Shown piece after piece: positions 8,382-32,404 of a stretch of DNA of 64,000 nt. This DNA comes from Naegleria gruberi. Its lineage: Eukaryota. The stretch is from assembly GCA_000004985.1 (NCBI GenBank), contig GG738910.1. The stretch is one strand, 5' to 3'. Position numbers and translations under genes: made by a program. The notes below the pieces were generated by a model. The model searched no databases, was not told the DNA's origin, and worked only from the letters and a program-made list of their open reading frames with translations. Positions within the stretch are counted from its first letter, which is position 1. The number at the start of each line of letters is the position of its first letter.

Positions 8382-11117
8382 TTATTGACCCAACAATTTG
8401 GTTCTCAAGACGTATGGCAAGATACCACCATGCTTGAAGTATTCAAGTTCTGGTTCAGTATCGAATCTCAAAATTGTGGTGAATTCCTTGACATTTTCGT
8501 TACCAGTAACAGAGACAGTAACTTCTTGGAATGGCTTCATACCAGCAGACAAATCAATGCTGAATTGTTCCTTACCAGTCAAACCCAAAGAGTCAGCACT
8601 TTGGCCTTCCTTGAATTGCAATGGAATGATACCCATACCAGCCAAGTTAGATCTGTGGATTCTTTCGAAAGAGGTAGCAATAACAGCCTTAACTCCCAAA
8701 AGATATGGACCCTTAGCAGCCCAATCTCTTGATGAACCTGAACCATATTGTTCACCACCAATAACGATCAATTCGTTACCAGCTTCACGATACTTGACGG
8801 AAGCATCGAAAACTGAAACAGCTTCACCAGATGGAACGTGGAGAGAAATTGGACCTGGTTTACCGATCATCTTATTGTAAAGTCTAACGTTAGCAAAAGT
8901 ACCTCTGACCATGACTTCATCGTTACCACGACGAGCACCATAAGTGTTAAAGTCCTTTCTTTCAACACCTCTTTCCAAGAGATATTGAGCAGCAGATGAC
9001 TTCAATGAGATACTACCAGCTGGAGAAATGTGGTCAGTAGTAGTGAAATCACCCAAATTCAACAAACAGTAAGCATCCTTAATTGGCTTGCTTTCATTGG
9101 TTTGAGATTCAACAGCCTTGAAGAATGGTGGATCGTGAATATAAGTTGACTTTTCATCCCATGGATACAACATGCTTTCTGGAGCATCCAACTTATTCCA
9201 GTTATCAGTACCCAAAGCAATCTTTTCATAGACAGACTTGAACATTTCTGGAAGAACATTGTTAGTGACACATTCTTGAACTTCTTCGTGAGTTGGCCAA
9301 ATGTCTCTCAAGAAAACTGGTTGATTAGTGGTTGGATTGACACCCAATGGTTGAGTTTCAAAATCAATCTTAACATTACCAGCAAGAGCATAAGCAACAA
9401 CCAAAGGTGGAGAAGCCAAATAGTTAGCTTGGACAATTGGGTGAACACGAGCTTCAAAGTTTCTGTTACCAGACAAAACTGAAGCAGAAACCAAGTTGGA
9501 ATTAACAATAGTTTCATGAACAACTTCTGGCAATTCACCAGAGTTACCAATACAAGTCATACAACCATAACCAACAACGTTGAAACCCAACTTGTCAAGA
9601 TATCCTTGCAAACCAGACTTAGTCATATATTCAGAAACGACACCTGAACCTGGTGAGAGAGATGTCTTAATGTATGGATTAACAGTCAATCCTTGTTCTA
9701 CAGCCTTCTTGGCAAGCAAAGCAGCAGCAAGCATGACAGAAGGATTTGAGGTATTTGTACAACTGGTAATAGCAGAAATAACAACTGAACCATGAGTTAA
9801 ATTGTACTTCTTTCCTTGATATTCAATTTCAACAGTCTTTTCAGAATCTTCAGCTGGAATTTCGAATCCCTTGAAACCTCTCTTGGCAGTCAAACCTTCC
9901 TTGAATTCCTTATGGACATCAGTCAAAGAGACACGATCGTGTGGTCTCTTTGGACCAGCCAAAGATGGAACAACAGTAGTCAAATCAAGTTCCAATTTAG
10001 CACTATAACGAATGTTAGCAGCATCTGAATCAGATGTGACGAATAACTTTTGAGCCTTCAAATATTCAGCAACCAAAGCAACCTTCTTTTCATCTCTGTT
10101 AGATTGTTTCAAGAAAGTAAGAGTAGTGTTATCAATTGGGAAGAAACCCATAGTAGCACCATATTCTGGAGCCATGTTTGAAATAGTGGCACGATCAGCA
10201 ACAGACAAGTTATTGACACCTTCACCATAGAATTCAACAAACTTTCCGACAACACCCAACTTTCTCAAGTTTTGAGTAAGAGTCAAAACCAAATCAGTAG
10301 CAGTAGCAGCACCAGTCAATTTACCAGTTAATTTGTAACCAACAACTTCTGGCAAAACCATGGCACTTGGTTGACCAAGCATGGCAGCTTCAGCTTCAAT
10401 ACCACCAACACCCCAACCTAAAACACCCAAACCATTGATCATAGTAGTGTGTGAATCAGTACCAACCAATGAATCTGGATATAACAAAGCTTGTAAATTA
10501 TTTTCCTTATCAGTTGATGAAAGTTCTTCATTATTTTCAAAAACAACTCTAGCCAAATATTCCAAGTTAACTTGATGGACAATACCACTTCCTGGTGGAA
10601 CAATTTGCAAATTCTTGAAGGCCTTGCTACCCCACTTTAAGAACTTGAATCTTTCATAGTTTCTATTGAATTCCTTTTCTTGATTTTGTTGTAAAGCATC
10701 CTTTGAACCAAAGTCATCAACTTGAACACTGTGATCGATAACCAAATCAACAGGAACAAGTGGATTAACATTAGCTGGATTACCACCGAGTCTCTTGACA
10801 GCATCACGAATAGCAGCCAAATCGACAACAGCAGGAACACCAGTAAAGTCTTGCATCAAAACTCTAGCTGGTTTGAATGGAATTTCAATAGACTTCTTGC
10901 TTGATTCTTCCCAGTTAAGGATCTTTTCAACATCTTCCTTCAAGACAGCAAATTCATCACAATTTCTTACACAATTTTCCAACAAGACACGAATACAGAA
11001 AGGGAGAGTATCGAGTCTATCGTCCTTCAATTCAGGTAAGCTAAAGTATTTATACTTGCCACCGTTAACTTCGAGAGAACGAGCAACGCTTTCAAATGGA
11101 TTTGGTTGTGCTGGCAT
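8382..11117 (-). CDS. Cytosolic aconitate hydratase / iron-regulatory-protein-1-type aconitase (911 aa)
   Basis: Full-length single-exon ORF. N-terminus [30 protein letters not shown] is typical of the IRP1/ACO1 class. It contains the aconitase Fe-S cluster ligand region ...[28 protein letters not shown]... and ...[16 protein letters not shown]..., and the C-terminal swivel domain ...[36 protein letters not shown].... ATG at 11115-11117, stop at 8382-8384. Confidence 0.9.
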
Positions 11118-15403: not shown

Positions 15404-16747
15404 TTACAAAGTTGGACGTCCCATAAAAGTCATCCAAGAATTAATGACATCTATGCTTGTTAAATCTGCTCTATTCATTAAACCGGCTAGTTCTGGATGT
15501 TGATTAAGAGCCTCTTCACTCTGATTTTGACATTCATTAATCTCCTGAATGAATGCCTTCTTGAAAGGTTCGGGTTTTTTGAGTTTATGACTCAAAGGAA
15601 ATACAGTTTCTTTCAATGTTTTCCACATTGTATAGGCATCCTCAGGAGAGTAGGTGGATTTGGAAAGTTTGAAATGATTATGAGATAGCGCCTCCTTATC
15701 CTCACTCCATTGAATATAATTATCAGACCCTTTCCAGTTGGATAGTATTTCACAAATTTGACTTTTTAATCCACCATTCCTCAATTGTTCTACTTCTTTG
15801 TGAACACGTTCACAAAGTGCTCTGAATAATAAATTCCAAGAAGAGGATTCATGTATAGAATTCAAAATAGAGACCATATCTGCTGCTGAATAACTAAACC
15901 TTATTGAATTCAGCATCTCATTACAAGCACTGAAAATAACTGCATCACATTCGAATATCGTTGCTATTTGGGCTACCTTATAAAAATGTATGAGTGATTG
16001 CTCTGGGCATCTATTGGTGTACATTAAATCTAAAAAACTCTTTACATGTGCTTCAGTAATAGATAATGAACTTCCAAGCACAATTTGATTCTTTTTTGGA
16101 CTCTTATCGAAATACTTTTTGAAATAGTTACAAAAAATTGAAAGAAACATTTTGTGAGCTGGCAATGAGCCTTCCTTCCCAGTTGAAGTATCTTTAAATT
16201 TGATTGTAATATCAAAATCCTTCTTTTTCTTGTACAATTCCTCAAAATGTTTGAAGAGTGATGAATTTCTTTCCTTCTTTGAAAATTCTGCTGTTTTAGT
16301 GCTAAATACATACGCTACATTATCAAACACAGGTTTCTTGTGGGTAAAATCAAAAAACAGTGGTCCATTATATGGAGTAATGATTGCATGTCCAGGATCA
16401 GATATTTCATCAAGAATCTCTGCTGCATTCGCCTTACTATAGGCTGAAACCAATGAAAAATCACCATTTGGCCATCTGCAAACATATAAAGAAACTGGTT
16501 TTCCAATCGAATCATCTCCAAAACCTTCTTCATCTTCATCTCCAAACTCATCAGCATCATCTTCATCTTCGGAATCAATATCAAAATCTTCTTCATCTTC
16601 CTCTGCTATTTTTCTTTTCTTAGCCTCTTGTTCTTCATTATTTGTTTTTGTTACTTGTTGTGGTTGATCATCTTCATCTTCGTCATCACTCGATAAAACG
16701 AGCGTTTCTTGTTTTTGGGAAATAACAGGTTTTCTCTTTGGCGCCAT
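15404..16747 (-). CDS. BTB/POZ-domain protein with highly acidic N-terminal region (447 aa)
   Basis: ATG at 16745-16747. The N-terminus is a D/E-rich stretch (SSDDEDEDD...EDEEDFDIDSEDEDDADEFGDEDEEGFGDD). The central region ...FDITIKFKDTSTGKEGSLPAHKMFLSIFCNYFKKYFDKSPKKNQIVLGSSLSITEAHVKSFLDLMYT... matches BTB-fold spacing. Single exon. Confidence 0.5.
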   Translation of the reverse strand: MAPKRKPVISQKQETLVLSSDDEDEDDQPQQVTKTNNEEQEAKKRKIAEEDEEDFDIDSEDEDDADEFGDEDEEGFGDDSIGKPVSLYVCRWPNGDFSLVSAYSKANAAEILDEISDPGHAIITPYNGPLFFDFTHKKPVFDNVAYVFSTKTAEFSKKERNSSLFKHFEELYKKKKDFDITIKFKDTSTGKEGSLPAHKMFLSIFCNYFKKYFDKSPKKNQIVLGSSLSITEAHVKSFLDLMYTNRCPEQSLIHFYKVAQIATIFECDAVIFSACNEMLNSIRFSYSAADMVSILNSIHESSSWNLLFRALCERVHKEVEQLRNGGLKSQICEILSNWKGSDNYIQWSEDKEALSHNHFKLSKSTYSPEDAYTMWKTLKETVFPLSHKLKKPEPFKKAFIQEINECQNQSEEALNQHPELAGLMNRADLTSIDVINSWMTFMGRPTL

Positions 16748-17304: not shown

Positions 17305-20300
17305 ATGAGAGCTTCATCTTCGGGTGACGATTCATCCTCCACTTCGAATCTTGTTGCTCATCATTATCAGCAAAATTCCAATCATCATCATCAGCGGCCC
17401 AGTTTAATTGATCATATTTTGATGAATAATAATCAGACAAATAATAATAATTATTATCAGCAAGATAGGGAATTGGAAGAAGTTTCAACAAGTGTTGTGC
17501 AACATTATAATAATAATGGTGATTTAAATTTTCCAATTTCTTCTTCTACATCGTCGTCTTCATCCACCAATACAACAAATAATAGTCCTAATCATACTCC
17601 TTCTCCATCAACAACAAATCAACAACATATAATTAGTAATAATAGTATAATTAATTGTGAAGAAGATGAAGAATACTTTAATCGAACAACAACAAATAAT
17701 AATCAAAGTAGTAATACGAGTCATAATAATATCATACCAACTAATATTCATACAACATCATCCTCAGCCCATCTGGTGGGCGAAATTAATGTACATAACA
17801 ATAATAATAATTTAACGTCTCCTGCTGATGATCAATCAACTGATGAAGGAATCTTCCAAAAAACCAAGAGAAAGGGAGAGAACATTTTGGAAACTATTCT
17901 TAGATACTTTTGCTGTGTTTCTCACTTTTCGAGGAATAATACACAACTACTCGAATCACACAATGTTTCGAGTAGTGATTATGGAGCACATAGTTCTGCT
18001 TTCATTAAAGTATTGAAAAAGAATGATCATATTAATATAGTGAACGAGTCGAATGTTTCATCGAGGAGGAGAAGTCGTTTATCACAAGAGGCTGTCAAGA
18101 AGATTAAAAAGAAAAAGAGAATTAGACTGATGAGTGATATTGATGAGGATAGTGATAACGAGGATCAAATTATTGAGAGTGAATATTCATTTTGGATATG
18201 GTTGAAATGTTTCTTTGGAAATTTGACATTCATGTGTCATCCTCCAAAGTGTTGCACCATTTTGAATATTTTAATTATTTTGTTTATTGTTCAAGGAATT
18301 TTTGGAATTATTTCTTCCTTTATTTTACTTTATTCGAGTGGTGAGAGTGTTTTGAAACAAACAGAATCGATCCAACAAATTCAAATCAAAACCTATTCCA
18401 AGAATGAAATTTTAAAGATTGTGGACTATACAAATCTTGCGGTAGAGACAATCAAGTTTGAGATGGCCGAATCTGATTTTAATATTAACAACCAATTACA
18501 TTGGACTAAACTTTTTAATTATGTGGCTAGTATTTATGGGAATAGTATACCAATAGATGGCATATTTTATGGTAAATCGGATAATTTCTATGTAGGATAT
18601 AATAGAAACGTTCAACACACGATAAGAAATGGTACAGCTGGTAAATCCCAATGTCAATACTTTTATCGTGCTCATCTCGACACTATCATAACTGATGATT
18701 CTTACTATTATGAAAACTTTGACTATGTTGCTTGTAATTTGTCAGTTTCGAACACAAAGAGACCTTGGTACTTGCCATATACAAAAGAATCTGATGCATC
18801 AAATTCTATCAAGTGGGCCCCTGTATTCAAATCAATTTATGGAGACCAAAGTATTGCTGTGACAATACCAATCTATGTTAATCAGACAATTTCACAAGCA
18901 CTCAATCAGACAACGCTCAGATACATTCCTGTTGATACTGCTCCTTCATCAATTAAGGTTCCATCTCGCCTATATGGTGTTGTTGGATTTCAATTACAAT
19001 CTAGAGCTTTAGGTGAGCTATTGAAAAATAGCTCTGGTTCATTTGGAGAGGTTGATATGGTATTTATTACGAATCCAGATGGTGATTTAATAGCAGTCAA
19101 TGCTCAATCTGGTTCAGATTACTTTCTGTTTGCCAAATATATCATACAGGATTATAGTGAAAGAGGAGTGTTGCACACTCTCAATACCACTACTTGCCAG
19201 ATAACCAATGGAGTATTATGTTCTCTTTCTTTGGAAAAGAAATCATATTCTTTTGAAGGTGAGGCATATTCTGTTGAGCTTTTATTTGCTACAGATTTGT
19301 ATAGTCTTGGATGGGGAGTGGCAATAGCTTCGAAAGTGAAATCATTTGCAGATGAAGTAGTGACAGGCGGTGTCACTTCTGTAGTTGTATTCGTTATTGT
19401 TTTTATATTTGGTATGATTATACTCTTCTTTACCCTCAAAGCAATTAGTAATCCAATACAACAATTGTCAATAGACATGCTCAAATTGACCAACTTGAAA
19501 GATAACAAGTCAAAGGAACAGACTTTAAGTATTTTCAGTGATATCAGAGAAATGCAAATTCACATCAAGGCAATGAAAAAAGGTCTAATTACATTTTCCA
19601 AGTATGTACCTGAGATTGTTGTAGAAAAGGTAATGATCAAACAAGACTATTCCTATGGAGAGGCTGGATTAACAACACAGAACATGTCAGTATTATGTTG
19701 TGAGCTCAATCCATCCGAAATATTTAGGGAAATGAAACCTTCCGACCTGTTAGACTTGCTCAATGATTACTTTGTGCTTGTTTGCAATGCAACTCACAAT
19801 CATGGAGGATTAGTTGACAAGTTTAACACTAATGCATTGGTTTGTTATTTTAACGAGTCAACATTCCCTGTCTTGAATCATGAACAAAATGCTTGCAGTG
19901 CTGCTTTGGAAATTGTCAATCAGATAAGCGAATTAATTGAAAAGCACTCAAAGAAAACCTCCTCCAAAATATCCATCAAGGTTTCAGTCAATAGTGGAGA
20001 CATTATTTGTGGGCTATTAGGATCTAATACTAGAATGAATTTCTCCATGATTGGAAAAAATTATGACATGGCAATTAACATGCTACAAATGAATAACCAT
20101 TACAAAACCAAGGTACTTATTGGTCAAAACACCTTACGTAAGGTGAGGGAGAACTTTATTTGCTACTTTGTAGACAGTTTGGAGACTGAAAAGATTTCAA
20201 TGCCATGTTCAACATTTAAATGTACATCAAGTGGGGATTTATCAAAATATGATGAAGAGGATAATAATGGCATTTGTAATGTTTATGAATTGATTTGTCA

Positions 20301-20490
20301 TAAGGACGAAGCGACAGAACTCCACAAAAAGATTCAATCTGATTTATACCAAATCGAGTCTTTCTTAGCGAACCAACAGTATCACTATCTGTACGACAAG
20401 TGCCTCTGCGTACTATCCTTAGAAGATCTTCAGAGTGTTGAATATTTAAAATCCAAATATAAAGCCGAATTGAATCGACAGATCCTTTAA
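17305..20490 (+). CDS. Receptor-type membrane protein: N/S-rich cytoplasmic N-terminus, TM1, ~350-aa extracellular Cache-like sensor region, TM2, HAMP-like linker, and a degenerate class III nucleotidyl-cyclase homology domain (pseudo-cyclase), then a C-terminal extension
   Basis: TM1 is ILNILIILFIVQGIFGIISSFILLY. TM2 is VVVFVIVFIFGMIILFFTL, followed by AISNPIQQLSIDMLKLTNL (HAMP-like). The cyclase-homology blocks are ...MSVLCCELNPSE... in place of vLFaDIvgFT, ...GGLVDKFNTNALVCYFN... in place of GDaym, ...IKVSVNSGDIICGLLGS... in place of IrIGiHtGpvvaGvvG, and ...RMNFSMIGKNYDMAINMLQ... in place of rYdvwGdtVNtAsRmes. Both metal-binding Asp and the transition-state Arg appear to be substituted (E, N, L). 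Confidence 0.55.
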   Translation: MRASSSGDDSSSTSNLVAHHYQQNSNHHHQRPSLIDHILMNNNQTNNNNYYQQDRELEEVSTSVVQHYNNNGDLNFPISSSTSSSSSTNTTNNSPNHTPSPSTTNQQHIISNNSIINCEEDEEYFNRTTTNNNQSSNTSHNNIIPTNIHTTSSSAHLVGEINVHNNNNNLTSPADDQSTDEGIFQKTKRKGENILETILRYFCCVSHFSRNNTQLLESHNVSSSDYGAHSSAFIKVLKKNDHINIVNESNVSSRRRSRLSQEAVKKIKKKKRIRLMSDIDEDSDNEDQIIESEYSFWIWLKCFFGNLTFMCHPPKCCTILNILIILFIVQGIFGIISSFILLYSSGESVLKQTESIQQIQIKTYSKNEILKIVDYTNLAVETIKFEMAESDFNINNQLHWTKLFNYVASIYGNSIPIDGIFYGKSDNFYVGYNRNVQHTIRNGTAGKSQCQYFYRAHLDTIITDDSYYYENFDYVACNLSVSNTKRPWYLPYTKESDASNSIKWAPVFKSIYGDQSIAVTIPIYVNQTISQALNQTTLRYIPVDTAPSSIKVPSRLYGVVGFQLQSRALGELLKNSSGSFGEVDMVFITNPDGDLIAVNAQSGSDYFLFAKYIIQDYSERGVLHTLNTTTCQITNGVLCSLSLEKKSYSFEGEAYSVELLFATDLYSLGWGVAIASKVKSFADEVVTGGVTSVVVFVIVFIFGMIILFFTLKAISNPIQQLSIDMLKLTNLKDNKSKEQTLSIFSDIREMQIHIKAMKKGLITFSKYVPEIVVEKVMIKQDYSYGEAGLTTQNMSVLCCELNPSEIFREMKPSDLLDLLNDYFVLVCNATHNHGGLVDKFNTNALVCYFNESTFPVLNHEQNACSAALEIVNQISELIEKHSKKTSSKISIKVSVNSGDIICGLLGSNTRMNFSMIGKNYDMAINMLQMNNHYKTKVLIGQNTLRKVRENFICYFVDSLETEKISMPCSTFKCTSSGDLSKYDEEDNNGICNVYELICHKDEATELHKKIQSDLYQIESFLANQQYHYLYDKCLCVLSLEDLQSVEYLKSKYKAELNRQIL

Positions 20491-20922
20491 CTGTGGATTC
20501 AAAATTTCCTCAAAAAGACAATTTTCATTCTTGCTCCTTTAAATAATAGTAGTATTAGTTGTTCCTTAGTTCTGACATTGTGTGAATCAAAGCCGCTTAG
20601 TTCTTCCAAACAATTCAATGAGAGTTGATTAGCATCAAACCGGTTCGGGCTATTAAGGAACCATTTTGTGAAAAAGGATCTGTGAGCAATAAATTCAATA
20701 TCAAAAATAGAGTGGTGCATCCAGAAAAGTCTAGTCCTTAGTTCTTCAGTTCTACTCCTCCTCACTCGTTAACACCTCAAGAGTTTAAGCCAAATCGAAG
20801 CACTCTAAAAAACATTAAGAAAAAAACATTAACACAAAAATATTAAGCAGGTGCACACAAAGTACTTTTTTAACGGTTAAGGGTAACTCTCCTCTTTATA
20901 AGAATAATTGAATAAGAGAAAC

Positions 20923-21933
20923 ATGGGATCAGCACCATCAACAACATTTATTTCCTCATTTGCTGGTAATTCACTAGTGATGGATAAACAATCCATGATG
21001 GTGAGACAATTACTATTGGGTAACGATTCTAAGAAAGGTGATGTAGATGTTTCAAACCGATCGAAGACTTACTCCTTACCTAGTCATCATTCGAGTAGTG
21101 GAAGCAGTATTACACATGCCTCCAAGAGTCATGAATCTTCTCCAGTTGAGCTTTGTGAACATCATGCACCATTGCGATCAATCTCACCTACAAGAAGAAG
21201 AGCAAGTGAAAATGGTTCAATAGGAAGCAGTATTAGCTCTCTGAGTGACTCTATGGATATAAGTAAGGGAAGAGTCAAATCAATTCAATCGAATGGTGTA
21301 TTGCACTCTTATGAGTTTTGGAGTAATGAATCAATAGATTTTGAAAATTGCAGACAAGAAACTGAAATGCAAAACATCCAGATGGAAATCAAAATGAAAT
21401 CTCCAAAGCATTCAGAAAAGCATGATTCAGATTCTCTTCATCACAACCCAGAACATAAGAAAAAGAAGAAGTACAATGGATGGGTTGAAGAACCTCTCAG
21501 TCAATCGATGCATCATTCACCATCCCACCATCACTCAACTCATCACTCCAACAATCATCATTCCACAAACCACCATCACTCAACTCACCACCATCACGCC
21601 AGCAGACATGAACATCATCATTCAAATCATTCAGCTCACTCAACTACCACCTCCAAACCAAGTTCTGTTCTTTCTCCTATTACAACTCGTCATTCTCATG
21701 ATTCAAGCATTCTTGCAACTAATTCCAAACTAAGTCCACTGCATCACGAAGCACCTAATTTCAACAGTGCAATCCAACAACCATCTGTCCAACACAATGC
21801 TTTCAATCTTCCTCTCATTCCTTTCCATTTAAATTTATCAGCTTCTTGGGATCGTCAAAAAGCCATCGAGTTATATGAAAAATCAATGAAACAACATCAT
21901 GATTCTAAATCAACTCACGAATTTGGCTCATAG
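20923..21933 (+). CDS. His/Ser-rich low-complexity protein with MGxxxS N-terminus
   Basis: ORF 20908..21933 (track start is TTG; first ATG at 20923 gives MGSAPSTT...). Long HHS/HHST repeats (HHSPSHHHSTHHSNNHHSTNHHHSTHHHHASRHEHHHSNH). No domains recognised. Confidence 0.35.
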   Translation: MGSAPSTTFISSFAGNSLVMDKQSMMVRQLLLGNDSKKGDVDVSNRSKTYSLPSHHSSSGSSITHASKSHESSPVELCEHHAPLRSISPTRRRASENGSIGSSISSLSDSMDISKGRVKSIQSNGVLHSYEFWSNESIDFENCRQETEMQNIQMEIKMKSPKHSEKHDSDSLHHNPEHKKKKKYNGWVEEPLSQSMHHSPSHHHSTHHSNNHHSTNHHHSTHHHHASRHEHHHSNHSAHSTTTSKPSSVLSPITTRHSHDSSILATNSKLSPLHHEAPNFNSAIQQPSVQHNAFNLPLIPFHLNLSASWDRQKAIELYEKSMKQHHDSKSTHEFGS

Positions 21934-21987: not shown

Positions 21988-23649
21988 ATGGCGAGACTTT
22001 CATGTATTAAAGGTTTATTTAAAATATATATTGCTGTCTTTGCTATTGTTTTATTAATTCTAGTGATTATCAACATTCAACGACATGAATCTGTTTTCAA
22101 GAAATCATCAACCTTTGAATCTATTCGAAACAAAATTTCGAATATAAATTCGGATGTATTAACAGATGAAAAAACAAACGAACAACAAAAAGATCAAGTA
22201 CAAACAATAACTAAACCATCATCAAATTTAAATACAAATATTGCTAATCAACAATTGCAAAACAAACAATCAGAAACTACAACACCTCTGATTTGTCTAA
22301 ATTCCGACTCGAATAGATTGAAAACTAAACAAGAAGAATTATGTGATTCGGAATATGGATGTGGAATGCTTCGTCAATGGAAACAAAATCAATTATTAAT
22401 GTGTGAACGAAAGGAATCCCATCAAAAAACACAATTGACTTGTTATGAACATAATAATTATCACTTGCCAACTGCCACCTTTCCACACACAATTTGTGAT
22501 TCTGAAAATCTAGTCATGGATTTCTCAAAATTAGTAAGAGCACCATGTTTGAAATATAGACCTGGATATTTTTGTAAAAAGGAAACTTATTACAATTACA
22601 AATCTGGAGCATTGATTGGAAATTGTCATAGAACGAATGAATTTTCAAATTTGAATCATTTTGCAAATGATTTTGGAAAGGATATCTTTTCCAGTTTTAT
22701 AACATTTGAAGAAAAACAAGTTGATTTGCAAAATGTGAAATTTTTTGATGGAATTACTATTTTCGTATCGAGAGAACAAGATGAACATGTCAATATGTTT
22801 CATGCAATGAGTGATTTCTTTGCCACACATGTTGTCATTGAAATGTTTAAACTGAACAGTTCAAATATTCAAATAGTCATTTTGGATGAGCATTTTGATG
22901 GACCTTTTGATTTCTTGTGGGATAAGGCACTTTCCTTCAAGAGACCAATGAAAAAGGCCTCTTCCTTTTCAAATGGAATGGTAAGATTTGAGAGGGCAAT
23001 CTTTCAACATGCTGGCTATGCTACACATTTCCTCTCAAATTTGATGAATTTTAATGAGAATGATGCTACTATGTGTCACTCAAAAATTCCACTCGTTGCC
23101 AATTTTGCCAATAGAATTTTGAATGGTTTGGGTATCAAGAAGAGAGAAATCAATAAGGGTGATGTGATTCGTGTCTTGTTCATCAGTCGAAGACCTTATG
23201 TGAAATTTGGAGTCGAGCACAATTTCATGTCTCGTCAAATTAGCAATGAAGAAGAGGTGTTGGATCGAATGAAGACTCACAGAGAATATGGCAAGAAATT
23301 CACAGTGGAAAGAGTTGATTTTGCACATTTGAAATTAGTTGAACAAATTCAAAAAGTTCACGATTCAGATTTCTTAATTGGATATCATGGAGCTGGATTG
23401 ACTCACTCATTGTGGATGCCTGAGGAAACCTCTGCAGTTCTTGAAATTTGGAATACAGTAACAACAAGAGGATGGAGATGCTTTGAACAATTCACATTTT
23501 GGAAGGGAAACGACTATACATTGTGGAGTAATTCAAATCCAAAGAATTTGAGAAAGGACAGTTTGGGAGATTACTTGACTGTGGATGTTGCGGACTTTTA
23601 CAAAACATTTGATAGAATGGTTAACAAGTTGATTGACTCTAGGAATTAG
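21988..23649 (+). CDS. GT61 family (DUF563) glycosyltransferase, EOGT-like (553 aa), type II membrane topology
   Basis: N-terminal signal anchor (IYIAVFAIVLLILVIINI), a stem region, then a catalytic domain ending with the diagnostic motif ...DSDFLIGYHGAGLTHSLWMPEETSAVLEIW.... This matches the GT61/EOGT [I/V]G-HGAGLTN ... EI motif. Confidence 0.7.
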   Translation: MARLSCIKGLFKIYIAVFAIVLLILVIINIQRHESVFKKSSTFESIRNKISNINSDVLTDEKTNEQQKDQVQTITKPSSNLNTNIANQQLQNKQSETTTPLICLNSDSNRLKTKQEELCDSEYGCGMLRQWKQNQLLMCERKESHQKTQLTCYEHNNYHLPTATFPHTICDSENLVMDFSKLVRAPCLKYRPGYFCKKETYYNYKSGALIGNCHRTNEFSNLNHFANDFGKDIFSSFITFEEKQVDLQNVKFFDGITIFVSREQDEHVNMFHAMSDFFATHVVIEMFKLNSSNIQIVILDEHFDGPFDFLWDKALSFKRPMKKASSFSNGMVRFERAIFQHAGYATHFLSNLMNFNENDATMCHSKIPLVANFANRILNGLGIKKREINKGDVIRVLFISRRPYVKFGVEHNFMSRQISNEEEVLDRMKTHREYGKKFTVERVDFAHLKLVEQIQKVHDSDFLIGYHGAGLTHSLWMPEETSAVLEIWNTVTTRGWRCFEQFTFWKGNDYTLWSNSNPKNLRKDSLGDYLTVDVADFYKTFDRMVNKLIDSRN

Positions 23650-26204: not shown

Positions 26205-28319
26205 TTAAACACTTGAGGAGGTTGAAGGAGAACTCACTTTCAATTGATCTTGTAATTTGGCTTGTAACTTTTTCCTGTTTTCAGCATTCTTTCTTTTGGA
26301 TCTTAGTAACAGGACTGTTGTAAAGATTACAATAATCAAAATAATTAAAAGAATGACCACCACACCAACAACACCCACAGTGATACCAATTGTTACTGCT
26401 GACTGATCAGAAGAGGTATATGTTGAGGTTTGTACCTTATTTTCACTCAGTGTCTTCTTAACAGACATGTCAATGACTCCAAATGAAGTAAGGTGACTCG
26501 TTTCACATTTGACTGATATTACAACTTGGAAATTGGTGTTATCTATTGTCTTGTTCAAGAAGGAGAGAATAGTAGTTTTCAACCCTGAAGATTCCCAAGT
26601 GTTTTTCAAAGTATTGTAATAGGCACAGGAATAATTCAAGTGCTCAGATTTACCAATTGAAACATTGAAGAAAGCTAATGAAATTGGATCTTGTAAACCC
26701 TTGATTGCAATTTCTTGAGCCGATTGTCTGTCATAGAGTGAAATGGACATAACTGTACTCTTCAATTTGTCACTATTCGAAAATAAAACTGGAGCAGAAT
26801 TAGTGCTTGGATCGTAAATGGACGAAACTAACACAATCTCGCTTACATTATTAATTTGATCACTCATTGTCGCTGGAAATTCAAAACTAGTCTTGAAACC
26901 GTCAAAGGAAACTGATTTGGAATCAAGTTCTGTAACATCCTTCACAACTGTCAACTTTTCAACATAACCGTTTACCAAAGAAGTGTTCAAACATGTAGAA
27001 TTTGCAGCCACAATCTTTCCATAACAATACTTGTATTCACAATATTGTCCAAAGTAATTTTCTTGGCATTCAACAACAGGTTCTTCCTCATTCATCCAAT
27101 AATCTCCAATGTCAGTTTCTCTCCAGTCTGGTATTGTGAGATTAAGTGGTTTTGTGACGCATAATGTACCATTAGAATTAATGGAATAATTTGTTGAATT
27201 ACACGAATATTCCATCATTAGAATTCTTTGATTATTGGTATCGGTTACTGTTATGGCCATAGAGGAAACTCCTGGTTTAGACAGAATGTTGATAGACACA
27301 CTTTCAGGACCTGACATGATTGTAGTTCCAGATACGGTTTGAATAATACCAGTACGCAAATCAATTCTTCTCAATCTGTGATTCCAACTGTCGGCAATGT
27401 ACAAATCATTTTGTAATCCCAAGAATAAATCTCGAGGACTGTTAATCATGGCAGAAGTTGCTGCCGAACCGTCACCTGCAATACCTCCATTTCCTGTTCC
27501 ACATATGGTTGAGATTATTCCAGTGGCAGCTGTTATTTTTCTGATTCTGTTGTTTTGAGTATCAGCAATATAAATGTCACCATTAGACATGATAGCAACA
27601 GCTTGAGGACCATTCAACTTGGCAGATGTTGACAATACGTTATCTGTAAATCCTGATGAACCTGCTGTTCCAGCAATTGTTGTAATAATACCAGTAAATA
27701 TATCAAGTTTTCTGACAATATGGTTAAGAGTGTCTGAAATGTACAAATATTTCTGTGTTGTGGTATCGAATGTAACTCCTCTTGGACCATTAAGCATGGC
27801 TTGAGTAGCTATTTTACCATCGCCTGAAAACCCAGCTGTCAAGTTGCCAGCAACAATAACGAGCTGACCTGTCATTAAATTTAACTTTCGAATAATATTA
27901 TTACCACTCTCAGCAATGTATAACGCATTCTCTGTAGTACTCATGGTAATCTGTCTAGGTTCATTGAGTTTCGAATATCTTGCTTTGAACTTTCCACCAA
28001 CGAGTGGTGATTCAGCAAAACCTTTCTCACCAGTTCCACATAAAGTCAGTAAACTGCCATTCGAATGAATAAACTTCAATTGATGATTGCCAGTATCAGC
28101 AATCAACACTCTTGAATAATTAGAAACCCTTACTCCAGCTGGCCAAACTAGAGCATAGTTATTGCCAGCATCAGCAATAGTTTTATAACTTGTGGCCGTT
28201 GGCGTTAATTGACCATTGACATGTTGTTGATCTAGCTGTGTCAGTTGACTAAAGAGCAGAGTTGTTATGATCGTTATTATTAAATGTAGAATAGTCATAG
28301 ATGAAACTGTTTGCTGCAT
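26205..28319 (-). CDS. Cluster member 1: NHL-repeat beta-propeller / single EGF-like / GPS-motif / single-pass TM surface protein (704 aa)
   Basis: Signal peptide (MTILHLIITIITTLLFSQL). Six or more NHL blades (e.g. ...YIADSGNNIIRKLNLMTGQLVIVAG..., ...YISDTLNHIVRKLDIFTGIITTIAG..., ...YIADTQNNRIRKITAATGIISTICG...). One EGF-like Cys knot. Juxtamembrane ...YSCAYYNTLKNTWES...VKCETSHLTSFGVIDMS..., a canonical GPS site (C-x-x-x-H-L-T-S-F-G-V). TM is VGVVGVVVILLIILIIVIFTTVLLL, followed by a basic tail. Single exon. Confidence 0.7.
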   Translation of the reverse strand: MQQTVSSMTILHLIITIITTLLFSQLTQLDQQHVNGQLTPTATSYKTIADAGNNYALVWPAGVRVSNYSRVLIADTGNHQLKFIHSNGSLLTLCGTGEKGFAESPLVGGKFKARYSKLNEPRQITMSTTENALYIAESGNNIIRKLNLMTGQLVIVAGNLTAGFSGDGKIATQAMLNGPRGVTFDTTTQKYLYISDTLNHIVRKLDIFTGIITTIAGTAGSSGFTDNVLSTSAKLNGPQAVAIMSNGDIYIADTQNNRIRKITAATGIISTICGTGNGGIAGDGSAATSAMINSPRDLFLGLQNDLYIADSWNHRLRRIDLRTGIIQTVSGTTIMSGPESVSINILSKPGVSSMAITVTDTNNQRILMMEYSCNSTNYSINSNGTLCVTKPLNLTIPDWRETDIGDYWMNEEEPVVECQENYFGQYCEYKYCYGKIVAANSTCLNTSLVNGYVEKLTVVKDVTELDSKSVSFDGFKTSFEFPATMSDQINNVSEIVLVSSIYDPSTNSAPVLFSNSDKLKSTVMSISLYDRQSAQEIAIKGLQDPISLAFFNVSIGKSEHLNYSCAYYNTLKNTWESSGLKTTILSFLNKTIDNTNFQVVISVKCETSHLTSFGVIDMSVKKTLSENKVQTSTYTSSDQSAVTIGITVGVVGVVVILLIILIIVIFTTVLLLRSKRKNAENRKKLQAKLQDQLKVSSPSTSSSV

Positions 28320-29585: not shown

Positions 29586-32404
29586 ATGCTGAACCGAGTC
29601 TTTCAAACTGGTGTCCTGTTGGTACTCACTCTTACTGTTTTAGTTTTGATTATTGACAATCAACTCTGTGTAAATGCAACATTTAAACCATTGTACAAGA
29701 TGAGTACTGTTGTGGGTGGTGGATTTGATGATGGTCAAGATGCTAAACAAGTTTGCCTTGCTCCAACCAAAGTCAAGTTTGATAGAAAGAGTGAGAATAT
29801 TTATATTTCAGGTGAGTTTTTATTCTAAACATGCTTCAAGATTATATGATTAGATAGAATCAATAATAGAATCAGAAAGTTGGATGTGATGAGTGGAAAG
29901 ATCAGCACTATTGTTGGAAATGAATTTATTGGATTTTCAGGAGATGGTCAAGCAGCAACTCTTGCTCATATCAATAATCCAGGAAAGGTTGAGGTCTCTT
30001 CAAATAATGATATTTACTTTGCTGTAAGTTCTCTTTGTTCTGTTTCTAATACACTCATTTCAAAAAGGACACTAACAATCACAGAATTAGAAAGGTATTT
30101 GCCAATGGAACGATTTTAACCATTGCTGGTTGTGGAGAATTTGGTTTTGATCTGGAAGAGAAATCTCCAGTTCCTGCTCTAGAAGCCAAAATCAATTATC
30201 CTAAAGCAGTTCTTCTCTCTTCTGATGAAAAGATATTGTACATTACAGATACAGCTTCTCACATGATCAAAGCTCTTTCATTCGAAACTGGTTTAGTTTC
30301 CATTATTGCTGGCTCTTTATACCGTGATAGTTCTCAAAACTCAACGATTGTTCAAGGACCAATCAGTTTGGCTTTGAGCCCTCTGACTAGTGAGGTTTAT
30401 TTTGTAGATGATGATGGTATTAAAAAGATTACTAATGAAGGAAAGATCGAAATGATAACAAGAAATTCTAAATTTGGTGGAGATGGAGGTCTAGCAATCA
30501 ATGCTGGAGTTTCAGCTGTTGATATTGAGTTTTTGGGCACTAGTAATACATTGTTAATTGCTGATTACGGCAATAATCGAATTAGAATTATTGGTACCAA
30601 TGGCTTTATTGAAACCTATGCTGGTAATGGTAATGTGACTTCAAGTATTGATGGCGAAAGAGCTTTAGATTCTCCACTGACGGCTTTTGGAGTTTCCACA
30701 TCTAATGAGGGTGAAGTTTATTTTGCTGATTATGCCAGAGTTTCAGTTGTCACCATTAATGGCTTAATCAAACACGTGGCTGGTAATGGGAAATTGCAAT
30801 ATTTGGGAGATGGTAATTTAGCAACCCAAAGTCAATTATTCAAGCCAAGAGGTGTTGCTGTTTCCACAAGTGGAGAGCTATTTATCAGCGATTCTGCTCA
30901 AGATACTATTCGAAAAGTTTCTACTGAAGGTGTAATTAATACCATTGCCGGTGGAACTTTTCCATTGGGAGGTTATATTCAAGATGGTGTTGACCCATTG
31001 AATACATTCCTTAATAATCCAAGCGCTCTAGAATTTTCATCAAGTTCAGGAGAATTGTTTCTTTCAGATTCTCACAATTTTAGAGTGAGAAAGATTTCAA
31101 AGGAAAATATCATTTCTACAATCGCTAACCATACCTCAATCACCAGACCACACGGCATTGCTCTTTATAATGACTTGGTTTATGTGGCTGATTCTCAATC
31201 CAATAGAGTGATACGAGTTGATAAGAATGATGGCTCTGTAACTCTGATAGCAGGAAATGGAACTGCTGGTTATTCAGGAGATGGAAGTTTGGCTACTCAA
31301 GCTCAATTATTCAATGTTTCTGGAGTTACTGTTCTTCCTAATGGTGAAGTTTTGATTGCAGACACCAACAATCATAGAATTCGTAAGGTCAACTTGGAGG
31401 GTATTATTCAAACAATTGCTGGTACAGGAATTCCCGGATTTAATGGTGATAATATCCTCGCCACTAGTGCTCAATTGAATTCTCCAACTGACATCGAAGT
31501 TTCTCCAGTTTCAGGTGAAATTATTATTGTTGATTCGAATAATCATCGTATCAGAAAGATTGATTCCTTTGGTAATATTTCTACAATTGCAGGAACAGGT
31601 ATTGCATCATTGAGCTCACATGGTAAACTTTCCATCTATGGAAGTCTTAACACTCCAACTACGCTTTCAATTTCTGCTTTCAGTGGTCATGTCTACATTG
31701 CAGATTACGAAAATAGAAGAATTAGAAAATTGGAACAATTTACTATTGAAAAATACAATCTTCCAGTTCAAGATGATGGTGAATTGAGAACCGAAACTAT
31801 CCAAGATTCTACAAATCTTAAAACAATTAATTATGATAATATTCAAATTGAACCTCCAAAGGAAAGTTTAAAGAATTCAGAGCTGAGTCTTGCCACTTCA
31901 GTTTACCAAGTCGACAGAAATGGAAAATTAACATCTTTTGAAAAGTCTATTAAGAGTGGAATTGTCACTGTTGCAATTTTGGATTCTGATTGTAATGTTA
32001 TAGAAAATCCATTTACTTCTCCTCTCACAATTACATTCACTGAACTTGATTTCAATTCTACATCAAACTATTCCTGTATTTCGTACAATCAAGAATCCAA
32101 AGAATGGAAGAATGATGGCTCTGTCAATGAAATTTTATCTCTTAATTCAAAATTAACAATTTCATGCAAATTTAGCAAACTTTCATCATTTGCAATAATG
32201 GAATCAAGTGGAGGACCTAGTCCAATAATAACTGCAACCTCTTCAAATACTAATACTTTCAGGGACGCTGGCTTGGGAACTGATGCTATTGTTGCCATTG
32301 TTGTTTCCACTGTTGGTGGTGTAGCTTTGGTTGGAATTATTATGGCTGTAATTGTTGGAATATTGTTTATTATGAAGAGAAAGCAAAATCTTTCCAAAAT
32401 TTGA
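29586..32404 (+). CDS. Cluster member 2: NHL-repeat / GPS-like / single-pass TM surface protein; 3 exons, approx join(29586..29811,29854..30023,30095..32404)
   Basis: ATG at 29586 (track M at 29580 is a non-ATG start). Signal is VLLVLTLTVLVLII. Exon 1 ends ...ENIYISG with a GTGAGT donor. Exon 2 reads DRINNRIRKLDVMSGKISTIVG...SNNDIYFA (textbook NHL blade) and ends at a GTAAGT donor. A 71-nt intron with a 'cactaac' branch motif follows. Exon 3 is in frame with ORF 30236..32404 (many NHL blades). Juxtamembrane ...CISYNQESKEWKNDGS...LTISCKFSKLSSFAIMES (GPS-like), then TM AIVAIVVSTVGGVALVGIIMAVIVGILFIM. Confidence 0.65.

What the first reader, a model, noticed from the sequence alone, without database searches (positions are those of the whole stretch)
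17305..20490. Receptor-type Cache/HAMP protein with a catalytically degenerate class III cyclase domain (pseudo-cyclase)
The topology (TM, ~350-aa extracellular domain, TM, HAMP-like amphipathic linker, cyclase-homology domain) is that of sensor adenylyl/guanylyl cyclases. The canonical metal-binding Asp pair reads E...N (VLCCELN; KFNTNAL) and the transition-state Asn/Arg region reads MAINMLQ. A ~330-aa N/S/T-rich low-complexity cytoplasmic N-terminus and a ~200-aa C-terminal extension are appended. The protein is either an inactive scaffold, a heterodimer partner for an active cyclase, or has a diverged activity.
Basis: partly seen in the sequence, partly recalled or inferred. Interest (0 to 1): 0.6.

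Follow-up and report, generated by a model that had tools for sequence, protein, structure and literature searches.

The report
Naegleria dCache receptor with dead cyclase domain
This is an intact Naegleria gruberi gene for a membrane receptor whose outer part is a bacterial-type double-Cache ligand sensor. Its inner part is an adenylyl/guanylyl-cyclase fold that has lost the residues needed to make cAMP or cGMP, yet it is conserved by selection, so it is a "pseudo-cyclase" receptor.

Summary
**Observation.** It is confirmed. Window 17305-20490 (+) is one 1061-aa ORF, identical to an unannotated "predicted protein" of Naegleria gruberi.

**Architecture.**
- Cytoplasmic N-terminus.
- TM1.
- A 345-aa ectodomain that models confidently as a dCache fold.
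- TM2.
- A ~50-aa helix-loop-helix.
- The cyclase-transducer motif FSKYVPE.
- A class IIIb cyclase-homology domain.
- A ~57-aa three-helix tail.

**Catalytic residues.**
- Metal Asp pair: E800 and N843.
- Transition-state Asn and Arg: D921 and N925.
- Only the substrate Lys (K839) and the phosphate Arg (R910) survive.

**Conservation.** The degeneracy is old. The N. fowleri, N. lovaniensis and Willaertia magna orthologues also lack the second metal Asp and the Asn/Arg pair. The domain is nevertheless under strong purifying selection (dN/dS 0.09).

- HAMP is not demonstrable.
- The low-complexity stretch is only about 185 aa and is specific to N. gruberi.
- The "200-aa C-terminal extension" is really the end of the cyclase fold, a 24-aa disordered insert, and a 57-aa helical tail.

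**Family context.** The protein belongs to a Heterolobosea-restricted family that mixes canonical, C1-like, C2-like and fully degenerate members.

**Verdict.** It is a new member of known kinds and of moderate interest.

The parts
17305..20490 (+). Complete single-exon gene: 1061-aa receptor pseudo-cyclase, stop codon included
   Evidence: ORF list. Identical over the queried residues 329-1061 to the 1061-aa N. gruberi predicted protein P0001.
17305..17859 (+). aa 1-185: N/S/T/H-rich low-complexity cytoplasmic N-terminus, specific to N. gruberi
   Evidence: Composition is N 19%, S 17%, T 10%. The stretch is largely unalignable with the N. fowleri and N. lovaniensis orthologues, whose N-termini are much shorter.
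17860..18240 (+). aa 186-312: conserved cytoplasmic pre-TM region with motifs YFCCVSHFS, VLxKND, IRLM(S/T)D and ESEYSFWIWLK
   Evidence: Alignment with the N. fowleri P0157 and N. lovaniensis P0003 N-termini.
18241..18330 (+). aa ~313-342: transmembrane helix 1
   Evidence: Kyte-Doolittle 19-residue window peak of 2.65. Conserved across the family.
18331..19365 (+). aa 343-687: extracellular dCache (double PDC) sensor domain with the Cache core motif R486-P-W488-Y. Q563 stands where amino-acid sensors have Asp. Six N-x-S/T sequons.
   Evidence: AF2 model pLDDT 85, pTM 0.83. Foldseek against PDB dCache ligand-binding domains gives E 4e-9. The profile reaches Pfam dCache_1 proteins. Motif alignment.
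19366..19443 (+). aa ~688-713: transmembrane helix 2
   Evidence: Kyte-Doolittle peak of 3.23.
19444..19593 (+). aa 714-763: juxtamembrane helix-loop-helix at the position of HAMP in bacterial relatives (P717 aligns with the HAMP AS1 proline). HAMP membership is not established.
   Evidence: The AF2 model shows helix 2-23, a loop, and helix 40-62 in cytoplasmic numbering. hhalign is in register with P 0.003 and probability 10%. No Pfam HAMP hit in 0/20 members.
19594..19638 (+). aa 764-778: FSKYVPEIVVEKV, the helix shared with bacterial class IIIb cyclases immediately upstream of the catalytic domain (cyclase-transducer-element-like)
   Evidence: The BLASTP and hhalign alignments to bacterial HAMP-cyclases start here: FSKYVPE versus FSKYVTK.
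19663..20301 (+). aa 787-999: degenerate class IIIb cyclase-homology domain with E800, K839, N843, R910, S914, D921 and N925
   Evidence: Pfam PF00211. PDB phmmer search. AF2 plus Foldseek. Catalytic-column table. Codon check.
20194..20265 (+). aa 964-987: disordered insertion between the last two strands of the fold, found only in the Naegleria orthogroup. It replaces the VKGK phosphate-binding loop.
   Evidence: pLDDT below 50. The insertion is present only in the query, P0002 and P0003.
20317..20487 (+). aa 1005-1061: C-terminal three-helix module conserved in the whole family
   Evidence: AF2 helices 300-317, 321-334 and 338-355 with pLDDT 89-97. Conserved family-wide. hhalign also aligns it to the C-terminal tail present in some bacterial HAMP-cyclases.

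Best explanation
The gene encodes a plasma-membrane receptor of Naegleria gruberi.

**What it is.**
- A bacterial-type dCache ectodomain binds a small extracellular ligand. The ligand is probably carboxylate-bearing and not an alpha-amino acid.
- The signal passes through TM2, a juxtamembrane helix-loop-helix, and the FSKYVPE helix into a class IIIb cyclase-homology domain.
- That domain keeps the fold but cannot catalyse cyclisation. Both halves of the two-metal active site are damaged: the metal-binding residues (E800 and N843 in place of the two Asp) and the transition-state residues (D921 and N925 in place of Asn and Arg).

**How it probably works.**
- The dead domain is retained for a non-catalytic role. 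Class III cyclase domains work only as head-to-tail dimers.
- The most likely role is therefore to dimerise, either with itself as a ligand-controlled scaffold or with paralogous family members as a regulatory, activity-limiting subunit.
- In the second case cAMP/cGMP output would be placed under control of a second ligand. This is analogous to receptor pseudokinases.

**Shown here.**
- The architecture, the dCache fold and the cyclase fold.
- Degeneracy at defined positions.
- The age of the degeneracy.
- Purifying selection on the domain.

**Inferred.**
- Membrane orientation.
- Ligand class.
- Dimerisation and the regulatory role.
For: **Fold and architecture.**
-.

**Catalytic columns.**
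- They were aligned against canonical bacterial class IIIb cyclases and canonical family members (P0121, P0127, P0139 = D/K/D/R/T/N/R).
- The query reads E/K/N/R/S/D/N.
- The position called 'substrate Lys' is the one that differs between guanylyl cyclase Cya2 (2w01, DEF) and its adenylyl-cyclase derivative (6fht, DKF) in the PDB alignments.
- The spacing K-x3-D and [D/T]-x6-N-x3-R matches Rv1625c K296/D300 and D365/N372/R376 (PMC4174876).

**Age of the degeneracy.**
- N. fowleri and N. lovaniensis orthologues read D/K/A/S/S/E/K.
- The sister Willaertia protein P0123 reads D/K/G/R/T/S/K.
- The loss of Asp2, Asn and Arg therefore predates the Naegleria-Willaertia split.

**Selection (N. fowleri versus N. 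lovaniensis coding DNA).**

| Region | dN/dS |
|---|---|
| Cyclase domain | 0.094 |
| Juxtamembrane linker | 0.092 |
| Ectodomain | 0.179 |
| N-terminus | 0.283 |

- dS is about 0.8.
- N. gruberi keeps a 1061-codon ORF in 34% GC DNA.

**Substituted residues.**
- They differ between orthologues, which argues against a new conserved chemistry.

**Family composition.**
- The family mixes canonical members with C2-like members that lack the Asp pair but keep K/T/N/R (P0141 of N. gruberi; P0136 and P0138).
- It also contains C1-like members (P0004, P0137/P0149) and fully degenerate ones.
- This is the pattern expected where heterodimers are in use.
Against: - No experiment, expression data or dimer model was available.
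- Glu can coordinate metal. K839 and R910 remain, so weak or unusual nucleotide binding or turnover is not excluded.
- Heterodimerisation is inferred only from the general dimeric mechanism of class III cyclases and from the family pattern.
- dN/dS was measured on the sister species, not on N. gruberi. The N. gruberi copy is the most degenerate: Pfam 26.5 bits against 48-52 bits for the orthologues.
- dS of about 0.8 is high, although not saturated.
Confidence: 0.72

Rival explanations
1. It is the 'C1-like' half of an obligate heterodimeric cyclase. E800 and N843 would supply weakened metal ligands to a single active site completed by a C2-like paralogue that keeps K/T/N/R, for example N. gruberi P0141 (NAEGRDRAFT_52378). 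The protein would then contribute directly to catalysis.
For: - N. gruberi has a C2-like family member, P0141 (G/K/G/R/T/N/R), which cannot work alone.
- Another N. gruberi member, P0149, also has Glu at the Asp1 position together with a true Asp2. Glu at this position therefore recurs in the family.
- The C1/C2 division of labour is established for mammalian adenylyl cyclases (PMC4174876).
Against: - Asp2 is Asn here, Ala in N. fowleri and N. lovaniensis, and Gly in Willaertia. No metal ligand is conserved at that position across the orthogroup.
- The GF[ST] phosphate loop after Asp1 is also destroyed in N. gruberi.
- No co-occurrence or interaction test was possible.
Confidence: 0.13
2. It is still an active homodimeric cyclase, or another nucleotide-processing enzyme, that uses non-canonical residues.
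For: - The fold, the substrate Lys K839 and the phosphate Arg R910 are kept.
- There is strong purifying selection on the domain.
Against: - Four of the six canonical catalytic residues are replaced, in both half-sites.
- The replacements are not conserved among orthologues, so no alternative catalytic constellation is evident.
- R910 itself is Ser in N. fowleri and N. lovaniensis.
Confidence: 0.08
3. It is a decaying gene: a relic cyclase on its way to becoming a pseudogene, with no function for the cyclase domain.
For: - The N. gruberi copy has the lowest Pfam score of the orthogroup and extra lesions.
- It has a long low-complexity N-terminal expansion.
Against: - The 3186-nt ORF is intact.
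- Orthologues are retained in three Naegleria species, and a sister protein is retained in Willaertia.
- dN/dS is 0.09 on the dead domain in the sister species.
- The most conserved segments include the cyclase core.
Confidence: 0.07

Closest known systems
Bacterial sensor class IIIb adenylyl cyclases (dCache_1/CHASE2 - TM - HAMP - cyclase), e.g. hits P0005-P0120, and the structurally solved CyaB of P. aeruginosa (3r5g)
   Same: - Same order of modules.
- FSKYVPE-type helix before the catalytic domain.
- Class IIIb signature Thr/Ser in place of the substrate Asp.
- 21-29% identity over the cyclase domain.
- Fold match with TM 0.84.
   Different: - The bacterial proteins carry the full D/K/D/R/T/N/R set and a Pfam-recognisable HAMP.
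- This protein has E/K/N/R/S/D/N, no detectable HAMP and a eukaryotic low-complexity N-terminus.
dCache_1-cyclases already reported in Naegleria gruberi (D2VLR9, D2V3A4; Upadhyay et al. 2016, PMC4822843)
   Same: - Same organism.
- Same general architecture, called a 'bacterial-type adenylate cyclase' with a Cache domain and attributed to horizontal transfer.
   Different: - They are different proteins (894 and 745 aa).
- Their Cache domains are recognisable to Pfam-type models.
- They were not hit by the ectodomain profile of this family.
- Their catalytic status was not examined here.
Mammalian membrane adenylyl cyclase C1/C2 and soluble guanylyl cyclase alpha/beta pseudo-heterodimers
   Same: - Cyclase-homology domains that have each lost part of the catalytic set and act only in a head-to-tail dimer.
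- One interface site is degenerate and regulatory (PMC4174876).
   Different: - There, each partner keeps one complete half-site.
- Here both half-sites of the same domain are damaged, so it cannot complete a canonical site with any partner.
Receptor pseudokinases (HER3, ROR, RYK and others)
   Same: - Functional analogy only.
- A ligand-binding receptor whose catalytic fold is conserved but inactive and signals through dimerisation (PMC13259870, listed).
   Different: - Unrelated fold and chemistry.
- No evidence here for the partner.
Leishmania receptor adenylate cyclase RAC-B (Sanchez et al. 1995). From memory; the library paper PMC7719234 only names RAC-A and RAC-B.
   Same: A protist receptor-type cyclase paralogue reported, as I recall, to lack activity and to down-regulate its active paralogue.
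   Different: - Different ectodomain (periplasmic-binding-protein-like).
- Different cyclase subclass.

Membership tests
Class III nucleotidyl cyclase (Pfam PF00211 Guanylate_cyc) - fold/homology | Significant sequence match to the family model and the cyclase fold | tested here: met
   Pfam 26.5 bits against a cut-off of 21.9, E 5.7e-6. PDB CyaB E 9e-10. Foldseek TM 0.81-0.84 to CyaB, Rv1625c and Cya2.
Class III nucleotidyl cyclase - catalytically competent enzyme | Two metal-binding Asp residues | tested here: not met
   E800 and N843 stand at the two Asp columns. The orthologues read D/A, D/A and D/G.
Class III nucleotidyl cyclase - catalytically competent enzyme | Transition-state Asn and Arg (N372/R376 of Rv1625c) | tested here: not met
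   D921 and N925 stand at these columns. The orthologues read E/K, E/K and S/K. Residue roles are taken from PMC4174876.
Class III nucleotidyl cyclase - catalytically competent enzyme | Substrate-specifying Lys plus Asp (class IIIa) or Thr/Ser (class IIIb) | tested here: met
   K839 is kept in all four orthogroup members. S914 stands at the Thr column.
Class III nucleotidyl cyclase - catalytically competent enzyme | cNMP synthesis in vitro | not testable with these tools
   Requires an enzyme assay.
dCache_1 (double Cache / tandem PDC extracellular sensor) | Match to Pfam PF02743 | tested here: not met
   No hit for the query, the orthologues or the ectodomain alone, even at E <= 10. One relative, P0136, shows a faint hit at E 0.034.
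dCache_1 (double Cache / tandem PDC extracellular sensor) | Homology detectable by profile, plus the fold: a long stalk helix and two PDC modules between two TM helices | tested here: met
   The family profile hits four bacterial proteins (E 1e-4 to 8e-4 in 1.84e9 sequences) that Pfam scores as dCache_1 at 48-83 bits. AF2 pLDDT is 85. The top 50 Foldseek PDB hits are almost all dCache or related tandem-PDC sensor domains, E down to 3.7e-9. The RPWY...W..[FY]...P.[YF]...LxGV core aligns.
dCache_1AA (amino-acid-sensing subclass; Gumerov et al. 2022, PMC8915833) | AA_motif Y121, R126, W128, Y144, D173 (PctA numbering). D173N/A abolishes binding. | tested here: not met
   The query has V481, R486, W488, F508 and Q563. 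Gln stands at the D173 column in 14 of 18 family members.
HAMP domain (PF00672) | Match to the HAMP model | tested here: not met
   No hit for the query. None of 20 family members hits HAMP at E <= 1.
HAMP domain (PF00672) | About 50-aa helix-connector-helix directly after TM2, with a conserved Pro in AS1, alignable to HAMP of homologous cyclases | tested here: inconclusive
   The predicted helix-loop-helix is of the right length and position. P717 aligns with the HAMP Pro. HAMP-only hhalign gives P 0.003 and probability 10.5%. The full-length hhalign runs through the region.

The most novel reading that the evidence does not exclude
The Heterolobosea-restricted dCache-cyclase family has independently reinvented the division of labour seen in animal adenylyl and guanylyl cyclases.

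- From a homodimeric bacterial-type ancestor, still canonical in Willaertia, Naegleria retained only non-canonical members: a C2-like subunit, C1-like subunits and fully dead subunits.
- This gene would be a ligand-gated inhibitory or allosteric subunit. It would combine with those partners so that one catalytic output integrates two different extracellular ligands.
Probability: 0.2. Interest if true: 0.6.

Novelty: new member of a known kind. Interest (0 to 1): 0.38.

Why it matters
- Naegleria carries one of the largest cyclase repertoires of any eukaryote: at least 81 across the genus (PMC9928731). Almost none has been characterised.
- The family found here has an ancient, selectively maintained dead catalytic domain. 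No N. gruberi member that I found has the full catalytic set.
- This suggests that part of the repertoire works through pseudo-enzyme or heterodimer logic rather than as simple sensors that make cAMP.
- It supplies concrete, testable pairs, for example this protein or NAEGRDRAFT_73850 with NAEGRDRAFT_52378.
- It extends the list of eukaryotic dCache receptors beyond what Pfam models detect.
- It is not a new principle. Degenerate cyclase-homology domains and dCache-cyclases are both known.

Tried and rejected
- **Pfam on the query, orthologues and isolated ectodomain/linker.** Only Guanylate_cyc was found. There was no Cache or HAMP hit.
- **Exact-sequence contig look-up of the window protein and of P0002.** Neither is on record.
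- **The search for homologous proteins with the 18-sequence ectodomain alignment.** It returned nothing, not even the query. I treat this as a tool anomaly. The family census therefore rests on the exhaustive representative search and cluster look-ups.
- **PDB sequence search with the ectodomain profile.** Only a non-significant RPWY-region match to the dCache of 7k5n was found, E 0.097.
- **Pairwise BLASTP to a bacterial HAMP-cyclase.** The alignment starts only at FSKYV, not in the HAMP.
- **Synteny.** The neighbours of the N. lovaniensis and N. fowleri orthologues resemble each other (an F-box-like gene upstream) but differ from the BTB and GT61 neighbours here. No adjacent cyclase partner exists in the window.
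- **dN/dS between N. gruberi and the other species.** Not attempted, because at about 47% protein identity synonymous sites would be saturated.
- **Literature.** No paper in the library describes this protein or a Naegleria pseudo-cyclase. The Leishmania RAC-B precedent could not be verified.
- **Rejected: amino-acid sensor.** The AA_motif is not met.
- **Rejected: decaying pseudogene.**
Full report
**1. What is in the sequence**

Window 17305-20490 (+) is one uninterrupted ATG-to-stop ORF of 1061 codons. The window is uniformly AT-rich at about 34% GC, where long ORFs do not arise by chance. The queried residues 329-1061 are 100% identical to a database entry of the same 1061-aa length, 'predicted protein [Naegleria gruberi]' (P0001). 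The window is therefore N. gruberi nuclear DNA, and the public gene model equals the ORF.

Orthologues exist in two other species:
- N. fowleri: P0002 (888 aa) and the alternative model P0157 (1012 aa), 46% identity.
- N. lovaniensis: P0003 (949 aa), 47% identity.

A more distant full-length relative comes from a JGI metagenome: P0004, 27% identity over 99% of the query.

**2.

Evidence for the domain:
- Pfam finds only Guanylate_cyc, at aa 792-946, 26.5 bits against a cut-off of 21.9.
- A sequence search of the PDB finds bacterial class III cyclases. The best is P. aeruginosa CyaB 3r5g, E 9e-10.
- An AlphaFold2 model of aa 706-1061, built on a 20-sequence family alignment (mean pLDDT 80), has the cyclase fold from about aa 787 to 999.
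- That model matches CyaB, Rv1625c, Cya2 and CyaC with target-normalised TM-scores of 0.77-0.84.

I aligned the domain with five canonical bacterial class IIIb cyclases and with family members and checked the codons:

| Canonical position | Residue here |
|---|---|
| Metal Asp1 | E800 |
| Substrate Lys | K839 |
| Metal Asp2 | N843 |
| Phosphate Arg | R910 |
| Substrate Thr | S914 |
| Transition-state Asn | D921 |
| Transition-state Arg | N925 |

Two independent anchors support the column assignment:
- The 'Lys' column is the one that differs between guanylyl cyclase Cya2 (2w01, DEF) and its engineered adenylyl-cyclase form (6fht, DKF).
- The spacings K-x3-D and T/D-x6-N-x3-R reproduce Rv1625c K296/D300 and D365/N372/R376, whose roles are described in PMC4174876.

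N. gruberi has two further lesions. It has lost the GF[ST] loop after Asp1 (ELNP-SE against DIEGFN in its orthologues). A 24-residue disordered insertion stands where bacterial enzymes have the VKGK loop.

**3. The degeneracy is ancient and the domain is under selection**

| Protein | D1/K/D2/Rp/T/N/R |
|---|---|
| N. fowleri and N. lovaniensis orthologues | D/K/A/S/S/E/K |
| Willaertia magna P0123, sister to the Naegleria orthogroup in a rough NJ tree | D/K/G/R/T/S/K |

Loss of Asp2 and of the Asn/Arg pair therefore predates the Naegleria-Willaertia divergence.

The replacing residues differ between species (N/A/A/G; D/E/E/S; N/K/K/K). This argues against a new catalytic constellation.

I recovered the coding DNA of the N. 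lovaniensis and N. fowleri genes (L001 and L002). Each has one intron just after 'FTK|YVPE', which N. gruberi lacks. I then computed Nei-Gojobori dN/dS by region:

| Region | dN/dS |
|---|---|
| Cyclase domain | 0.094 |
| Juxtamembrane linker | 0.092 |
| Ectodomain | 0.179 |
| C-terminal helices | 0.149 |
| N-terminus | 0.283 |

dS is about 0.8. The dead domain is among the most constrained parts of the protein, so a decaying relic is excluded for the orthogroup. This was not measured on the N. gruberi lineage itself.

**4. The ectodomain is a dCache sensor, although Pfam does not see it**

- Two hydrophobic segments, aa ~313-346 and ~688-713, bracket about 345 residues.
- Pfam gives no Cache hit for the query, its orthologues or the isolated region.
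- A profile of the four ectodomains was searched exhaustively against 1.84 billion representatives and found 29 proteins. Twenty-five of them have, or are fragments of, the same receptor-cyclase architecture. Four are bacterial proteins (E 1e-4 to 8e-4) that Pfam scores as dCache_1 plus HAMP.
- An AF2 model on an 18-sequence alignment is confident (pLDDT 85, pTM 0.83). It shows a long N-terminal stalk helix followed by two alpha/beta modules.
- Its best PDB matches are nearly all solved dCache or related tandem-PDC sensor domains: Mlp24, Tlp3, PctA/B/C, TlpQ, CqsR and KinD. E is down to 3.7e-9 with probability 1.0.
- The Cache core motif aligns residue by residue with the bacterial proteins: R486-P-W488-Y, W504..F508, P..Y, LYGV..Q563.

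Against the published amino-acid-binding motif (Y121, R126, W128, Y144, D173; PMC8915833), the query has V481, R486, W488, F508 and Q563. The half that contacts the carboxyl group is partly kept: R486 and W488 are present, but V481 replaces Y121. The Asp that binds the amino group is Gln in 14 of 18 family members. That paper shows D173N or D173A abolishes amino-acid binding. I therefore infer a ligand that is not an amino acid and may be a carboxylate. This is inference only.

**5. HAMP is not established**

- Between TM2 and the conserved FSKYVPE helix lie about 50 residues. They are predicted as helix-loop-helix, with P717 aligned to the AS1 proline of bacterial HAMP-cyclases.
- None of 20 family members hits Pfam HAMP even at E <= 1.
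- Pairwise BLASTP alignments start only at FSKYV.
- A HAMP-only profile-profile comparison gives P = 0.003 and probability 10.5%.
- 'HAMP-like by position and predicted secondary structure' is all that can be said.

**6. Corrections to the appended regions**

- Only aa 1-185 are N/S/T/H-rich low complexity, and this stretch is largely unalignable with the orthologues, whose N-termini are much shorter.
- Residues 186-312 contain motifs shared with N. fowleri and N. lovaniensis: YFCCVSHFS, VLxKND, IRLM(S/T)D and ESEYSFWIWLK.
- The supposed 200-aa C-terminal extension has three parts:
  - The last strands of the cyclase fold.
  - The 24-aa insert.
  - A three-helix module of about 57 aa (aa 1005-1061, pLDDT 89-97).
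- The three-helix module is conserved throughout the family and also aligns to tails of some bacterial HAMP-cyclases.

**7. Family context**

Cluster look-ups name the family members. They come from N. gruberi, N. fowleri, N. lovaniensis and Willaertia magna, plus unnamed metagenome sequences. The family looks restricted to Heterolobosea.

| Class | Members | D1/K/D2/Rp/T/N/R |
|---|---|---|
| Fully canonical | Willaertia P0121 and P0127; JGI P0139 | D/K/D/R/T/N/R |
| C2-like (no metal Asps, K/T/N/R kept) | N. gruberi P0141 = NAEGRDRAFT_52378; N. lovaniensis P0136 and P0138 | for example G/K/G/R/T/N/R |
| C1-like | P0004 | D/K/D/R/T/N/C |
| C1-like | N. gruberi P0149 = NAEGRDRAFT_73850 | E/Q/D/R/T/P/A |
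| Degenerate on both sides | the query's orthogroup; N. gruberi P0122 = NAEGRDRAFT_63463; several Willaertia proteins | various |

None of the four full-length N. gruberi members I found has the complete set.

The census rests on representatives clustered at 50% identity. The follow-up search with names failed, so a missed member cannot be excluded.

Upadhyay et al. 2016 already reported a Cache domain in a 'bacterial-type adenylate cyclase' of Naegleria and attributed it to horizontal transfer. Their table lists D2VLR9 (894 aa) and D2V3A4 (745 aa). These are other proteins, and my profile did not hit them.

**8. Mechanism**

Class III cyclases form their active sites at a head-to-tail dimer interface. 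One subunit supplies the two Asp residues. The other supplies Lys, Asp/Thr, Asn and Arg (PMC4174876). Here both contributions are damaged. As a result:
- A homodimer should be inactive.
- In a heterodimer with a canonical partner, both composite sites would be compromised.
- In a heterodimer with a C2-like partner, the single site would have E and N in place of D and D.

The best-supported reading (0.72) is a ligand-binding receptor whose cyclase-homology domain is kept for dimerisation-dependent, non-catalytic signalling or regulation.

Rivals:

| Rival | Confidence |
|---|---|
| Weak C1-like catalytic partner | 0.13 |
| Residual or novel activity | 0.08 |
| Decaying gene | 0.07 |

**9. Surroundings**

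- No other cyclase lies in the window.
- Neighbours are a BTB protein at 15404-16747 (-), a His/Ser-rich ORF at 20908-21933, and a GT61 glycosyltransferase at 21988-23649.
- The orthologues in N. lovaniensis and N. fowleri sit among genes that differ from the BTB and GT61 neighbours here.
- The antisense ORF at 19152-19508 lies inside the gene. I did not examine it further.

**10. Verdict**

- Both ingredients, dCache-cyclases in Naegleria and degenerate cyclase-homology domains, are known. This is a new, uncharacterised member rather than a new kind.
- The more interesting point is at the family level. A protist receptor-cyclase family appears to have shifted from canonical homodimers to a mixture of half-competent and dead subunits.

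Noticed in passing
window 26205-63318: A cluster of very large surface-protein ORFs with teneurin-like EGF, NHL, REJ and PKD domains:
- 26205-28319 (-)
- 30236-32404 (+)
- 36244-42357 (+), 2037 aa
- 43397-44794 and 44766-57002 (+), 4078 aa
- 58206-61838 (-)
- 61819-63318 (-)

Adjacent ORF pairs may be single genes split by introns or frame changes.
   Followed up: no
window 18331-19365 (ectodomain); residues R486, W488, F508, Q563: The dCache pocket keeps the Arg and Trp that bind the carboxyl group in the published amino-acid motif. The essential Asp (D173 of PctA) is replaced by Gln in 14 of 18 family members. The family also has a 25-40 aa insertion between the 'PIY' and 'LYGV' strands. This suggests a ligand that is not an amino acid and may be a carboxylate.
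   Followed up: partly
L001 11935-11985 and L002 5118-5227, versus window ~19600: The N. lovaniensis and N. fowleri orthologues have one short intron (about 50 and 108 nt) immediately after the codons for 'FTK' of the FTKYVPE motif. The N. gruberi gene has no intron there.
   Followed up: partly
N. gruberi paralogues P0141 (NAEGRDRAFT_52378), P0149 (NAEGRDRAFT_73850), P0122 (NAEGRDRAFT_63463); not in the window: Within this dCache-cyclase family, no N. gruberi member found has the full catalytic set. One is C2-like (K/T/N/R kept, no metal Asps) and one is C1-like with Glu plus Asp. Willaertia magna keeps two fully canonical members.
   Followed up: partly
window 20317-20487 (aa 1005-1061): A confidently predicted three-helix C-terminal module is conserved in all family members. 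It is alignable to the C-terminal tails of some bacterial HAMP-cyclases such as P0006. It has no Pfam family.
   Followed up: no
window 20908-21933 (+): A 341-aa ORF (TTG start as listed) rich in His and Ser, with long HHxxHH runs and no Pfam match, lies directly downstream of the gene.
   Followed up: no
window 8382-11117 (-): A complete aconitase gene (Pfam Aconitase E 8e-167 plus Aconitase_C), an ordinary housekeeping neighbour.
   Followed up: no
tool behaviour: the search for homologous proteins, given the 18-sequence ectodomain alignment A6, returned no hit at E <= 0.001. The query's own database entry was also missed, although the same region searched with HMMER against representatives gave 29 hits. 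This is unexplained.
   Followed up: no
PMC4822843, supplementary file 12: Other N. gruberi dCache_1 + Guanylate_cyc proteins, D2VLR9 (894 aa) and D2V3A4 (745 aa), are listed in the literature. They belong to a different lineage that is closer to the bacterial models. Naegleria therefore has at least two dCache-cyclase lineages.
   Followed up: no
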